NCBI RefSeq assembly: GCF_003334335.1
Contig: NZ_QOWQ01000007.1
Strand: one strand, 5' to 3'
Source: Escherichia coli
GTDB lineage: Bacteria; Pseudomonadota; Gammaproteobacteria; Enterobacterales; Enterobacteriaceae
Length of the DNA: 64,000 nt
Shown piece by piece: positions 18,001-21,000 of the stretch (positions are counted from its first letter, which is position 1; every line of letters starts with the position of its first letter). The position numbers were made by a program.

Positions 18001-21000
18001 CTCAGGGCGGCAAACAGACCAGTAAATGGATTCGCTGACGGGTTAAGTGAAGAGTACATTACGCTGGCATCCGGGTTTGTACCAAATTTCTGGAAGACTT
18101 CGTTGGTAGCCGGTGCCATCCACGACGCAATATACAGACCACCACCGAACAATATGATCGAGGTCACCCAGGTGCGAATAATGTTGCCATTAAAAACAGG
18201 TACCATGCAGGCAATGAAAAACACAAACTGAGAGAGGTCACCCAGTGGCATAACGCGGTTGCCGGGCAAGATCACGGCGAGGATCACAATCACCGGGATC
18301 AGCAATAATGCAGGGGCGATAACTGATGGATGGCCCACAATCAGAGCAGTGTCCATACCAACAGTGATTTGACGATCCGGGAACCGTTTGACCAGTTTTT
18401 TGCGTGCTACGTTGGAAAGCGGAACAAGTCCTTCCATCATGATAGAGGTCATACGTGGTAACAGAAGCATGACCGCAGCCAGATACATCCCTAACTGTAG
18501 GCTGGCGATTATGGTGTGGTATGGGGATTTCCAGCCATAACCACAAAAGCCCAATAAAATACCAATAATAAAACCAACCATAGTTGGATCGCCGAGAATG
18601 CCAAACCGTTTCTGAATAGTTTCGGCGGTCACATTCAGATTACGGAAGCCTGGGATGCGATCATAAATCCAGTTGAATGGATAAGCGAAAAGTAAGTAGG
18701 TATTGGCAACCGGGTGAGAGATCGCAACACCTTTTGGCAGGTTAAAGAATTTTTCGTTATTTTTAGCACCAAGATCGGCAGCGATCAGCGCCCAGACATG
18801 GAATAGCGCGGCGGTCAATGCGCCATACAGGAAGCTACCAGAATAGACGCCAACAATTGCCCCCATTGACGCATTTTGATGAAGATTGAAGACATCAACG
18901 TTAACACAGTCAGTCAGGCGGGCGACCAGCATTGCAATATTTACCGCAACACAGAGGGGAATAATGATAGCGCCCATGCTGGAGCCAAATCCCATAACCG
19001 CAGTCGCTGCGCCACCAACATCGATGGCACTGAGCGAGGAACCTGTTGCTTCTGCTAATCCGGTGACTGCCGGTTGCATTTTTTCCAGCATCAGTTTGAT
19101 GGTCATGGTTAACGCAATGAAACCAATGCCGACTTTGATGGCAGACGAGATACATTCTGAAAGAGGACGGCCAAGTATCTTCATCAGTACCAGAAAGATG
19201 ACCGGGATAAATATAAAATTTCCCAGATCGTTTATAAATTGCGTGATCAGTTCCATACATTAACCCTCAGATTTTTCATCATCTGGTCGGAAACCCATAT
19301 TCCAGCGTACATCAGCGGGCTTAACCAGCAATGCATTATCGTTACGTTCAGCTTCTAGCAAGTTCTTTTTAGAATTTTCTCTGGCGGTGGTGAAGTCGAA
19401 TGGGTTATCCAACCATGCATCGACAATCATTTTGCTGTATTCGAGATCGTTGACCCGGCAACCCAGTCCAATAACTTGTGCGTTATTGCTGAGTCGCGCC
19501 CGCTTTGCGGAGTAGGGGTTAGTAACCGCAACGGCTCTTATGCCCCAGTGTTTGTTGATCTGACAAGTAAAGCCAATGCCAGTCCCACAAATGTAAATTC
19601 CCAGACGGCACTCATCGCGTTGAATAATGCCTGCCATTTCGTCGGCCAGACGCGCGAAGTTATTGACACCTTGTTCCTTACATGTGACGGGATCGTACAC
19701 GATCTCCATGTTTTTCTCTTCTATGAGGTATTTTTTTATCTCCTCTTTACGTGCAAAACCTACATCATCGCTTGCGATAGCAATCTTTGTTTTCATTTCA
19801 TTTTGCCTGTCGTTAAGTAACTAAAGCCAAGTATGCTGTTGGTAAATATTGGTTGTCAATTGAGATCTGAATCACAAAATTTATAACTAATTGATTTTAA
19901 TGGTATTAAAAACCAATAAAAACAAATAAAAAATAAATTAAGCCAATTGAGACAAATTGGGATTGTACAGTGGCGTTGTAATGAATAATAAAAACTCATT
20001 TATTATCAATCGGATATATGGTTTTTGAACTGTTGTCTTTATTGGGTTTATTTGTACTTTCCACTGTTAGTGTTTGTTTTTGTTTGCATCATCTGTGCTA
20101 TGCTTGGCGTTTTCTAAGATGGGTAATAGATTTCAGGAGGAAGGATGTATCTGGTTGATGAAAGGCGAAAGTTAATACTTGAAGACTTAATGTCGGCAGG
20201 TACGGTCTATGTCAGTGATCTTGCACGAAAGTATGAAGTAACGTATGAGACCATCAGGAAAGATTTGACCCATCTTGAACAAAAAGGGCTGCTGATCAAA
20301 AGCCATGGTGGGGCGACTTTAAAGCAAAGGGCTATAGAGCATCCCTTTCAGGTCAGGGAAAAAGAAAATAACTCTTATAAGAAGGCGATAGCTCGTAAAG
20401 CGCTTGATTTCATTCCGCCTAATAGTTCGATGATTATCGGTACGGGCAGTACCACTTTTGAGCTGGCTAACCTGTTATGTATGAAGTCTGGGTTTAAAAT
20501 CTTCACAGATTCGCTCCCCGTTGCCAGTGTGTTGATTGAATCTGACAACCAGGTTTTTCTCTTTGGCGGCGAACTGCGTAGAAAGAGTTCCTCAGTGTTT
20601 GGGGGGTGGGCGGTATCTATGATCAACGATATACATGTTGATCTCTGTTTTATTGGAACCGACGGCTTTAGTAACATGACTGGTCCATCGACGCCTTCTT
20701 CTTCTGATGCGTTTTTGGATCGTACGATAATTTCGCACTCAGACAAAAAATATATCCTCGGTGATTACACCAAGTTTGAGCGCAGCAGTTTATTTAAGAT
20801 CTGCGACTGGTCGGAGATCACCGCCCTTATAACCAACGATCATGCCGACAAAGAGGGGATTGCCGAAGTCGCAAAATACACGTCAGTAATAACCTGTTAG
20901 AACTCACTACGACACGCCTTCTCCCTTCGAATCAGCTTTGCCAAATGTAATCATTTCCCAATTATCAAGTGAGCATCCATGGCGATGCTTGCTTAGCGCC

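What the first reader, a model, noticed from the sequence alone, without database searches (positions are those of the whole stretch)
19260..19796. RpiB/LacAB-type isomerase with a C-terminal extension leading a PTS operon
The 178-aa product is about 30 residues longer than typical RpiB (~149 aa) and ends in a charged tail. Its position as first gene ahead of EIICBA suggests a dedicated isomerase for the imported sugar-phosphate rather than a housekeeping ribose-5-P isomerase.
Basis: inference. Interest (0 to 1): 0.4.

Follow-up and report, generated by a model that had tools for sequence, protein, structure and literature searches.

The report
Unusual sugar-phosphate isomerase heading PTS operon
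This is a real, intact gene for an uncharacterised branch of the RpiB/LacAB sugar-phosphate isomerase family, carried on a foreign sugar-uptake island in about 4% of E. coli strains. It almost certainly processes an unidentified imported sugar rather than doing housekeeping ribose metabolism.

Summary
A 178-aa ORF on the minus strand (19796..19260) is an RpiB/LacAB-fold protein, 29 residues longer than E. coli RpiB at the C-terminus. It has an unambiguous start and sits 3 nt upstream of separate EIIC, EIIB and EIIA genes of a galactitol-family PTS.

It is not an ordinary RpiB, LacA or LacB. It fails all their curated cut-offs. It keeps the catalytic Cys/Thr but replaces both active-site histidines (His10 to Asp, His99 to Ser).

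It belongs to a tight, rare clade (63-90% identical, 170-180 aa) found in Enterobacterales, bee-gut Gilliamella and Lactobacillus, enterococci and L. plantarum. Most of the extension is conserved, with a near-invariant K-P-x-x-V-x-W-N-M-G-F motif. It is not homologous to the LacB alpha-7 helix. Only the last ~8 charged residues are variable.

In 34 loci from other organisms the gene precedes the PTS genes in 33. A 6-phospho-3-hexuloisomerase (PHI) gene accompanies it in 32; the other two carry a 3-hexulose-6-P synthase or a KpsF-like isomerase. E. coli has lost the in-operon PHI but keeps one in the adjacent operon.

The best reading is a dedicated catabolic isomerase that works with PHI on a PTS-delivered sugar phosphate. 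The substrate is unknown. Interest is modest.

The parts
19260..19796 (-). CDS of the RpiB/LacAB-family isomerase (178 aa; WP_000850105.1)
   Evidence: ORF; Pfam PF02502 E=1.5e-33; RefSeq annotation; AF2 model pLDDT 94.5 with RpiB fold
19587..19589 (-). Codon of Cys70, equivalent to the catalytic Cys66 of E. coli RpiB; Thr72 follows two codons later
   Evidence: Alignment to E. coli RpiB and LacB; invariant in 102 clade sequences; codon read
19488..19490 (-). Codon of Ser103, which replaces the ring-opening His99 of E. coli RpiB
   Evidence: Ser invariant in 102/102 clade sequences; role of His99 from PMC3755991
19290..19322 (-). Codons of the conserved tail motif K159-P-x-x-V-x-W165-N-M-G-F169 within the C-terminal extension
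   Evidence: 98-100% conserved across 102 sequences; also present in the distant sister P0124; pLDDT >90 but non-helical; not aligned to LacB alpha-7
19263..19286 (-). Variable charged end (PDDEKSEG); its last codons carry the GAGG ribosome-binding site of the EIIC gene
   Evidence: Not conserved or absent in 172-175 aa homologues; pLDDT about 64; sequence
17886..19256 (-). PTS EIIC, galactitol (Gat) family, 456 aa, starting 3 nt after the isomerase stop
   Evidence: TIGR00827 E=1e-104, below the GatC equivalog cut-off
17578..17862 (-). PTS EIIB, 94 aa
17109..17567 (-). PTS EIIA (PTS_EIIA_2 type), 152 aa; last gene of the operon in E. coli
19830..19859 (-). Best sigma-70-like promoter match of the region (TTGACA-18-CATACT), 34 nt upstream of the start codon
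   Evidence: a consensus match only, and the number of such sites is not above chance
19861..19876 (.). CRP-like site TGTGA-N6-TCTCA abutting the -35 hexamer
   Evidence: 1 mismatch; 5 in the window against 1.97 expected, so suggestive by position only
20145..20900 (+). Divergent DeoR/GlpR-family regulator, the likely repressor of the isomerase-PTS operon
   Evidence: found divergent and adjacent to the isomerase gene in most of the 34 loci from other organisms (no hit in four)
24790..25350 (+). hxlB-type 6-phospho-3-hexuloisomerase (PHI) of the adjacent operon, the only PHI left on the E. coli island
   Evidence: TIGR03127 209 bits against cut-off 160. In Citrobacter and K. oxytoca a second PHI lies between EIIA and SorC, where E. 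coli has a 51-bp gap
21228..24774 (+). Adjacent operon: second Gat-type EIIA, EIIB, EIIC, then Rpe-type 3-epimerase and an SDR dehydrogenase, followed by PHI
16092..17057 (+). SorC-family regulator, convergent with the isomerase-PTS operon; probably controls the adjacent operon
   Evidence: the palindrome TGCTCATATGAGCA occurs upstream of this gene and three times upstream of the second operon; in V. cholerae it heads that operon
25409..25484 (-). tRNA-Asn at the right-hand end of the island

Best explanation
The gene encodes a catalytically competent enediol-type sugar-phosphate isomerase with the RpiB/LacAB fold and a Cys70 base with Thr72. It belongs to a distinct, horizontally mobile clade. 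It is co-transcribed and probably translationally coupled with a galactitol-family PTS, and it acts on the sugar phosphate that this PTS delivers.

It works together with a 6-phospho-3-hexuloisomerase-type (PHI) SIS enzyme, so that two isomerisations carry the imported compound into central metabolism. The end point would be fructose-6-P or the pentose-phosphate pathway. In E. coli the in-operon PHI has been lost, and the hxlB of the neighbouring PTS/epimerase/dehydrogenase operon must supply that step.

The clade replaces the ring-opening His99 with Ser, and the phosphate-contacting His10 with Asp (Asn in a minority). It also adds a conserved C-terminal tail. These changes indicate a remodelled substrate pocket, most likely for an acyclic or otherwise non-ribose, non-galactose sugar phosphate.

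Shown: gene, fold, residues, clade, tail conservation, gene order, linkage to PTS and PHI, island status. Inferred: enzymatic activity, order of the two steps, homo-oligomeric state, regulation by the divergent DeoR and by CRP, identity of the sugar.
For: Fold and family:
- Pfam E=1.5e-33.
- AF2 pLDDT 94.5; best PDB matches are RpiB structures, TM 0.77-0.80.
- Catalytic Cys70/Thr72 and Asp10 are invariant in 102 clade sequences.

Not housekeeping:
- The protein passes only the generic TIGR00689 cut-off (99.7 > 88.3). It fails RpiB (103.8 < 138.65; 121.2 < 135), LacB (65.4 < 234), LacA (53.3 < 164) and DerI (99.7 < 240).
- The gene is in 240/5426 complete E. coli genomes, on a low-GC island between ldtA and tRNA-Asn.

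Distinct clade:
- In a search of 1.84 billion representative proteins, scores drop from 262 bits to 140 (the single sister P0124), then to 87 or less for generic RpiB. Higher-scoring intermediate rows are fragments of the same clade.
- Only 26 loci were found among 100,044 species genomes.

Linkage:
- The isomerase gene lies directly upstream of EIIC-Gat in 33/34 loci from other organisms.
- A PHI is present in the locus in 32/34, and in the same operon in 25.
- The PHIs tested pass the HxlB cut-off, 186-209 against 160.
- The two exceptions carry a 3-hexulose-6-P synthase (262.8 > 200) or a KpsF/GutQ-like SIS isomerase.
- The distant sister P0124 is flanked by two HPS-like genes.

Other points:
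- Coupling: the stop codon and the EIIC start are 3 nt apart, with GAGG inside the last codons.
- His99 is documented as the furanose ring-opening residue and LacB His9 as a phosphate contact (PMC3755991). Both positions are changed in all clade members.
- A protein that passes the D-erythrulose-4-P isomerase equivalog (P0145, 255.6 > 240) also has Ser at both histidine positions. This shows that such a site can serve an acyclic substrate.
Against: - No biochemical or genetic data exist for any member of the clade. Five literature searches found none.
- The order of the two isomerase steps and the identity of the sugar cannot be derived from sequence.
- A simple scheme of psicose-6-P to 3-hexulose-6-P to fructose-6-P conflicts with the usual suprafacial cis-enediol stereochemistry. 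That chemistry would give the D-ribo rather than the D-arabino 3-hexulose (my own reasoning from Rose's rule, not a tool result).
- The PHI and Rpe proteins score as canonical HxlB and Rpe, which argues against strongly diverged specificities.
- In E. coli the module has lost its own PHI, so it could be decaying, although the isomerase ORF is intact and at least 98.9% identical across the strains listed.
- The promoter and CRP sites are consensus matches, not above chance in number.
Confidence: 0.75

Rival explanations
1. Ordinary housekeeping or alternative ribose-5-phosphate isomerase B whose extra length is an annotation artefact (a miscalled start or a read-through end).
For: Best overall sequence and structure matches are RpiB proteins. 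The catalytic Cys/Thr are present.
Against: - The start is the first possible start codon and aligns to the RpiB N-terminus.
- The extension is C-terminal, conserved in over 100 homologues and confidently modelled.
- The protein fails the RpiB cut-offs.
- His10 and His99 are replaced in every member.
- The gene is accessory, present in about 4% of strains. E. coli K-12, which lacks the island, carries its own rpiB at the als locus.
Confidence: 0.03
2. A LacB-like subunit, that is a galactose-6-phosphate isomerase. The 30-residue extension would be the LacB alpha-7 helix that enlarges the pocket for hexose-6-phosphates.
For: LacB is likewise about 30 residues longer than LacA and RpiB because of a C-terminal helix (PMC3755991). 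MAFFT places a Trp of both tails in one column.
Against: - The profile-profile alignment with LacB stops at residue 134/129, so the tails do not align.
- The LacB model covers only profile positions 2-139 of 171.
- The AF2 model has no helix after residue 156.
- Foldseek matches LacB worse than RpiB (rmsd 4.7).
- There is no LacA partner and no lacC or lacD on the island or in any of the 34 loci.
- The protein fails the LacB and LacA cut-offs.
- The arginine corresponding to LacB Arg39 is not conserved.
Confidence: 0.03
3. An allose-6-phosphate / allulose-6-phosphate isomerase (AlsI-like). The PTS would import D-allose or D-allulose, and the Rpe-type epimerase of the neighbouring operon would act like AlsE to give fructose-6-P.
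For: - E. coli RpiB is annotated as an allose-6-P isomerase.
- The neighbouring epimerase hits the allulose-6-P 3-epimerase model at 178.6 bits.
- From my own knowledge, Listeria uses a PTS plus RpiB plus Rpe for allose.
Against: - In 23 of 34 loci there is no epimerase or second operon, only the PHI.
- The epimerase passes the Rpe cut-off but not the AlsE cut-off (235 > 212.6; 178.6 < 271).
- His99 and His10 are lost and no residue equivalent to Arg40 is conserved.
- The scheme gives PHI no role.
Confidence: 0.1
4. A D-erythrulose-4-phosphate isomerase-like enzyme in a PTS version of the tetritol/tetrulose pathway. PHI would move the carbonyl from C3 to C2 (as LerI and EryH do), and this enzyme from C2 to C1 (as DerI and EryI do), giving erythrose-4-P. 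The adjacent operon (PTS, SDR, Rpe-like, PHI) would be the polyol branch feeding the same last step.
For: - The clade shares the Ser-for-His99 change, the loss of His10 and an S-x-K-N motif after helix 6 with a protein that passes the DerI equivalog.
- Under this scheme every enzyme of both operons has a non-redundant role, matching the activities EryB/EryC/EryH/EryI and LerI/DerI described in PMC10733421.
- It explains why the second operon never carries its own RpiB-like gene in the loci seen.
- It explains why E. coli could lose one PHI copy.
- Erythrulose-4-P is not a central metabolite, so the last isomerase is indispensable.
Against: - The protein fails the DerI cut-off (99.7 < 240).
- A neighbour-joining tree does not group the clade with the His-less DerI-like proteins.
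- The PHI and Rpe proteins look canonical.
- No Gat-family PTS for a C4 compound is known to me.
- From my own knowledge, hosts such as L. plantarum are usually erythritol-negative.
- The HPS-containing variant fits less well.
Confidence: 0.15

Closest known systems
E. coli RpiB / AlsI (ribose-5-P and allose-6-P isomerase B; PDB 1NN4, 2VVR)
   Same: Same Rossmann-like fold (TM 0.77-0.78, rmsd 1.3-1.6 A). It is 39% identical. It shares the catalytic Cys66/Thr68, Asp9, Asn100 and Arg133 equivalents.
   Different: - 29 residues longer, with a conserved non-helical tail motif.
- His10 becomes Asp, His99 becomes Ser, and Arg40 is not conserved.
- Fails the RpiB equivalog cut-off.
- Accessory, PTS-linked and PHI-linked rather than part of the als/rpiR locus.
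LacB subunit of galactose-6-phosphate isomerase LacAB (PDB 4LFK)
   Same: Same family; a similar total length (172 aa) caused by a C-terminal extension of about 30 residues; has the Cys/Thr catalytic loop; encoded in PTS-linked sugar operons.
   Different: - The tails are not homologous and the tail here is not predicted helical.
- No LacA partner and no lacCD.
- 28% identity only.
- LacB His9 and Arg39 are not retained.
[quoted passage not shown]
   Same: RpiB-family enzyme of a catabolic 'carbonyl-walk' pathway. Both active-site histidines are lost, with Ser at the His99 position, and it shares an S-x-K-N motif after helix 6. It is paired with a 3-keto to 2-keto isomerase in its pathway.
   Different: - Scores 99.7 against cut-off 240.
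- Does not cluster with it in a distance tree.
- DerI-type proteins are about 150-155 aa without the tail.
- Kinase- and ABC-transporter-based context in Brucella, Rhizobium and Mycobacterium (my own knowledge) rather than a PTS.

Membership tests
RpiB/LacA/LacB superfamily (Pfam PF02502; NCBIfam TIGR00689) | Significant match to the family profile, above the curated cut-off | tested here: met
   PF02502 E=1.5e-33 over residues 5-137; TIGR00689 99.7 bits against cut-off 88.3
RpiB/LacA/LacB superfamily (Pfam PF02502; NCBIfam TIGR00689) | Rossmann-like alpha/beta/alpha fold of RpiB | tested here: met
   AF2 pLDDT 94.5; top 34 Foldseek PDB hits are RpiB or LacAB chains
Ribose-5-phosphate isomerase B (TIGR01120 / NF004051) | Score at or above the curated equivalog or subfamily cut-off | tested here: not met
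   103.8 < 138.65 and 121.2 < 135
Ribose-5-phosphate isomerase B (TIGR01120 / NF004051) | Catalytic base Cys66 and Thr68 (E. coli numbering) | tested here: met
   Cys70/Thr72, invariant in 102 sequences
Ribose-5-phosphate isomerase B (TIGR01120 / NF004051) | Ring-opening His99 and phosphate-contacting His10 | tested here: not met
   Ser103 in 102/102 and Asp/Asn11 in 97/102; roles of the histidines from PMC3755991
Ribose-5-phosphate isomerase B (TIGR01120 / NF004051) | Ribose-5-P to ribulose-5-P activity | not testable with these tools
   Needs an enzyme assay
Galactose-6-phosphate isomerase LacAB | Score at or above the LacB or LacA equivalog cut-offs | tested here: not met
   LacB 65.4 < 234; LacA 53.3 < 164
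Galactose-6-phosphate isomerase LacAB | Two adjacent paralogous genes (lacA and lacB) forming a heteromer, with lacC/lacD | tested here: not met
   One RpiB-family gene only on the island and in all 34 related loci; no tagatose-6-P kinase or aldolase
Galactose-6-phosphate isomerase LacAB | LacB-specific C-terminal alpha-7 helix | tested here: not met
   hhalign stops at 134/129; no helix predicted after residue 156
[quoted passage not shown] | Score at or above the curated equivalog cut-off | tested here: not met
   99.7 < 240; a true member, P0145, scores 255.6
[quoted passage not shown] | Histidine-less active-site signature (Ser at the His99 position, no His at the His10 position) | tested here: met
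   This signature is shared, but I derived it from one equivalog-passing sequence; it is not a published definition
[quoted passage not shown] | Phylogenetic grouping with DerI-type proteins | tested here: not met
   In a neighbour-joining tree on 139 core columns the sister is P0124, followed by His/His-type proteins. The method is rough and was not bootstrapped

The most novel reading that the evidence does not exclude
The RpiB-like enzyme and its PHI partner form a previously undescribed PTS-fed two-isomerase 'carbonyl-walk' pathway (3-keto to 2-keto to aldose). It would be the phosphotransferase-system counterpart of Brucella EryH/EryI and Mycobacterium LerI/DerI. The pathway would turn an imported tetrulose, or another short or acyclic ketose, into erythrose-4-P. 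The adjacent PTS/SDR/epimerase/PHI operon would be the matching polyol branch. The clade-specific tail and the His-to-Ser/Asp changes would be the specificity determinants.
Probability: 0.15. Interest if true: 0.6.

Novelty: new variant of a known kind. Interest (0 to 1): 0.33.

Why it matters
The practical value is a clear, testable lead to an unassigned carbohydrate pathway.

- The module is compact and mobile: a DeoR regulator, an RpiB-like isomerase, a Gat-type PTS and a PHI.
- It has spread between Firmicutes, bee-gut symbionts, Vibrio and Enterobacterales.
- It distinguishes about 4% of E. coli strains, including cattle-associated STEC lineages.
- Identifying its substrate would add a nutrient niche for these gut bacteria.
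- It would assign a function to a conserved RpiB-family clade with an altered active site.
- It would give non-methylotrophs a catabolic role for their PHI and HPS homologues.

It does not change how the enzyme family is understood, and uncharacterised isomerase paralogues in PTS operons are common. The interest is therefore moderate to low.

Tried and rejected
- Start-codon or frameshift artefact: rejected.
- Tail homologous to LacB alpha-7: MAFFT suggested a shared Trp, but hhalign, the LacB profile coverage and the AF2 secondary structure do not support it.
- Literature on the cluster: searches on L. plantarum pts35/pts36 names, RpiB + galactitol PTS + hexuloisomerase, erythritol + PTS + RpiB, and Gilliamella gave no characterisation. 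One STEC genomics paper lists the island genes by annotation only.
- A scheme of D-psicose-6-P to D-arabino-3-hexulose-6-P (RpiB-like) to fructose-6-P (PHI). It is attractive because psicose-6-P and hexulose-6-P are the C1-hydroxymethyl homologues of ribose-5-P and ribulose-5-P. I downgraded it because suprafacial cis-enediol transfer predicts the (2S) D-ribo isomer, not PHI's (2R) substrate. This is my own stereochemical reasoning.
- Grouping the clade with DerI-like proteins by phylogeny: not supported.
- Terminator after EIIA: none found by the simple scan.
- I could not inspect model coordinates, so where the tail packs and whether it reaches the partner subunit's active site remain unknown.
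Full report
**1. The observation**

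The window is E. coli DNA. The coordinates 19260..19796 delimit an ORF on the minus strand: ATG at 19796, TAA at 19262-19260, 178 codons. The two overlapping plus-strand ORFs are unsupported.

The product matches Pfam LacAB_rpiB over residues 5-137 (E=1.5e-33). It is identical to the RefSeq protein WP_000850105.1, 'RpiB/LacA/LacB family sugar-phosphate isomerase', 178 aa.

E. coli K-12 RpiB, fetched from NC_000913.3, is 149 aa, so the protein is 29 residues longer. The alignment starts at residue 3-4 against residue 2-3 of RpiB. No start codon lies further upstream in the ORF. The extra length is therefore genuinely C-terminal and not a start miscall.

The next gene, EIIC, starts 3 nt after the stop. 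The sequence TCT GAG GGT TAA TGT ATG places a GAGG ribosome-binding site inside the last codons of the isomerase. EIIC (19256-17886), EIIB (17862-17578) and EIIA (17567-17109) follow as separate genes of the galactitol family.

**2. Where it sits**

The gene lies on a ~9.4 kb island between ldtA and a tRNA-Asn gene next to nac/cbl. GC content is 39-46% against 49-53% in the flanks.

The isomerase gene is present in 240 of 5426 complete E. coli genomes, always chromosomal. Identity is at least 99% in 232 of them and 95-99% in the other eight. A paper on bovine STEC O156/O182 lists the island genes by annotation only (PMC5359238).

The island holds two units.

- Unit 1 is the isomerase-EIIC-EIIB-EIIA operon (minus strand), with a divergent DeoR regulator (20145-20900).
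- Unit 2 is a second Gat-type EIIA-EIIB-EIIC followed by three enzymes:
  - an Rpe-type 3-epimerase (235 bits against cut-off 212.6);
  - an SDR dehydrogenase;
  - an HxlB-type 6-phospho-3-hexuloisomerase, PHI (209 bits against cut-off 160).
- A SorC-family regulator (16092-17057) is convergent with unit 1.

**3. What kind of RpiB-family protein it is**

Against NCBIfam it passes only the generic family model (99.7 against 88.3). It fails RpiB (103.8 < 138.65; 121.2 < 135), LacB (65.4 < 234), LacA (53.3 < 164) and the D-erythrulose-4-P isomerase model (99.7 < 240).

The AlphaFold model is confident (pLDDT 94.5). Its best PDB matches are RpiB structures (TM 0.77-0.80). LacB matches worse (rmsd 4.7 A).

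Alignment with E. coli RpiB, two other RpiBs, two LacBs and LacA, and a 102-sequence alignment of close homologues, show the following.

- The catalytic Cys (Cys70) and Thr (Thr72), Asp10, Asn104/105 and Arg139 are kept.
- The ring-opening His99 of EcRpiB is Ser103 in all 102 sequences.
- The phosphate-contacting His10 is Asp in 83, Asn in 14, and Glu, Ser or Lys in the remaining five.
- The position of Arg40 (LacB Arg39) is variable.
- The roles of these residues are taken from the LacAB structure paper (PMC3755991).

**4. The extension**

The model has helix 6 spanning residues 140-156, followed by a non-helical but confident segment to about residue 170. Only the last eight residues have low confidence.

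Conservation follows the same pattern. K159, P160, V163, W165, N166, M167, G168 and F169 are 86-100% conserved; all but V163, at 86%, are at least 96%. Residues beyond 170 vary, and many homologues end at 172-175 aa.

In E. coli it doubles as the EIIC ribosome-binding site. The conserved motif upstream of it is the real feature.

[quoted passage not shown] The two tails are not homologous, however. The profile-profile alignment ends at residue 134 of the clade and 129 of LacB, and the LacB HMM covers only positions 2-139 of 171.

**5. A distinct, rare, mobile clade**

The search of 5.8 billion proteins returned some 120 homologues. Full-length ones are 62-99% identical and mostly 170-182 aa, and the extension is covered.

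In the library of 1.84 billion representatives, scores fall from 262 bits (the clade representative) to 140 bits (a single sister, P0124, 46% identical). They then drop to 87 bits or less for generic RpiB. Fragments of clade members fill the rows in between.

Only 26 loci were found in one genome each of 100,044 species. They come from:

- Enterobacterales: Citrobacter, Enterobacter, Klebsiella oxytoca, Entomohabitans, Providencia and Proteus;
- bee-gut bacteria: six Gilliamella, and Lactobacillus;
- Firmicutes and others: Enterococcus, Paenibacillus, Mitsuokella, Thermophilibacter and Tetragenococcus.

Earlier look-ups added L. plantarum, Streptococcus pantholopis, Orbus, Vibrio cholerae (next to an integrase), L. 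paracasei (between IS elements) and Olsenella.

**6. Conserved context**

I located homologues of all island proteins in 34 loci from other organisms by tblastn.

- The isomerase gene is immediately upstream of the EIIC gene in 33.
- The DeoR regulator is divergent and adjacent in most; no hit was found in four.
- A PHI-type SIS gene is in the locus in 32, and in the same operon, usually right after EIIA, in 25. The PHIs tested pass the HxlB cut-off (186-209 bits against 160).
- The two exceptions are both in Tetragenococcus halophilus. One module ends with a protein that passes the 3-hexulose-6-phosphate synthase cut-off (262.8 against 200). The other ends with a KpsF/GutQ-like SIS-only isomerase.
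- The distant sister P0124 lies between two HPS-like genes.
- Citrobacter and K. oxytoca have the same layout as E. coli but retain a PHI gene between EIIA and SorC. E. coli, Enterobacter wuhouensis, Entomohabitans and Providencia have lost it; E. coli has a 51-bp gap there.
- All of these genomes keep the PHI of unit 2, which is adjacent in 11 of the 34 loci.
- In one Gilliamella the two units are fused into a single operon with one PHI (L025).

**7. Mechanism**

What is shown:

- an intact enzyme fold with the catalytic Cys/Thr;
- a remodelled pocket, with two histidines gone and a new conserved tail;
- obligate linkage to a Gat-type PTS;
- linkage to an enzyme of the 3-hexulose-6-phosphate node (PHI, or HPS), or to a KpsF-like isomerase.

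The best-supported reading is a dedicated catabolic isomerase that acts on the PTS product. Together with PHI it would take the compound into central metabolism by two isomerisations. In E. coli the neighbouring hxlB would supply the PHI step.

The loss of the ring-opening histidine points to an acyclic or otherwise different substrate. A protein that passes the D-erythrulose-4-P isomerase equivalog (P0145, 255.6 against 240) likewise has Ser at both histidine positions. About 20% of the nearest family representatives share the Ser. A rough neighbour-joining tree does not place the clade with those proteins, so the resemblance may be convergent.

I considered two concrete schemes.

- **(a) A carbonyl walk.** PHI moves the carbonyl from C3 to C2, then this enzyme moves it from C2 to C1, as in LerI/DerI and EryH/EryI (PMC10733421).
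  - For a tetrulose phosphate this would yield erythrose-4-P.
  - It would give every enzyme of both units a non-redundant role.
- **(b) An allulose/allose route.**
  - It leaves PHI without a role.
  - In the version that passes through 3-hexulose-6-P, it conflicts with the expected stereochemistry. That is my own reasoning.

Neither scheme can be settled in silico.

**8. Regulation (inferred)**

- The best sigma-70-like match of the region (TTGACA-18-CATACT, 19859-19830, minus strand) lies 34 nt upstream of the start.
- A CRP-like TGTGA-N6-TCTCA site (19861-19876) abuts its -35 hexamer. Neither class of site is above chance in number.
- The palindrome TGCTCATATGAGCA occurs three times upstream of unit 2 and once upstream of the SorC gene. 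That is 4 matches against 0.28 expected. It does not occur at the isomerase promoter.
- This pattern fits SorC controlling unit 2 and DeoR controlling unit 1, as the V. cholerae gene order also suggests.

**9. Comparison and verdict**

The protein is a member of the RpiB/LacA/LacB superfamily. It is not a member of the RpiB, LacA, LacB or DerI families as curated.

It works like them in chemistry: Cys-based enediol isomerisation is inferred. It differs in pocket residues, in the tail and in its pathway partners.

I found no published characterisation. It is an uncharacterised variant of a well-known enzyme family in a well-known kind of operon. It is worth an enzymologist's afternoon but is not a surprise. 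Interest 0.33.

Noticed in passing
window 16004-16017, 21066-21079, 21169-21182, 21191-21204: The palindrome TGCTCATATGAGCA (up to 2 mismatches) occurs three times just upstream of the second PTS operon and once upstream of the SorC regulator gene. That is 4 matches against 0.28 expected. It is probably the SorC operator, with autoregulation.
   Followed up: partly
window 17058-17108, compared with L016 11758-12258 and L018 11761-12258: Citrobacter and Klebsiella oxytoca carry a PHI gene between EIIA and the SorC gene. E. coli, like Enterobacter wuhouensis, Entomohabitans and Providencia, has a clean 51-bp gap there. The isomerase operon has therefore lost its own PHI.
   Followed up: yes
L040 (= L014) 8543-11861 and L034 3319-8856, Tetragenococcus halophilus subsp. 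flandriensis: One strain carries two paralogous modules. The first runs EIIA, RpiB-like, EIIB, EIIC, then a 3-hexulose-6-P synthase. The second runs PRD regulator, RpiB-like, EIIC, EIIB, EIIA, then a KpsF/GutQ-like SIS-only isomerase. The partner enzyme has been swapped around the same isomerase-PTS core.
   Followed up: partly
L025 9001-15338 (uncultured Gilliamella MAG): The two units of the island are fused into one co-directional gene string: RpiB-like, EIIC, EIIB, EIIA, EIIB, EIIC, Rpe, SDR, PHI. They share a single EIIA and a single PHI, which suggests the two operons serve one pathway.
   Followed up: no
window 25409-25484, 27817-27892, 29641-29716: Three tRNA-Asn genes flank nac and cbl. 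The island abuts the first one, yet no integrase is present in the E. coli island. The V. cholerae version (L010 11967-13067) does have a phage-type integrase next to it.
   Followed up: partly
L009 779-2825 (3-kb metagenomic contig): The only distant sister of the clade (P0124, 46% identical) keeps His at the His10 position, but has Ser at the His99 position and the KPDHVAWSMGY tail. It lies between two HPS-like (OMPdecase-family) genes.
   Followed up: partly
window 25780-26727: The mechanical ORF for nac starts at a TTG at 25780 (315 aa). RefSeq annotates 305 aa, starting at the ATG at 25810. This is a routine start-site difference with no bearing on the finding.
   Followed up: no
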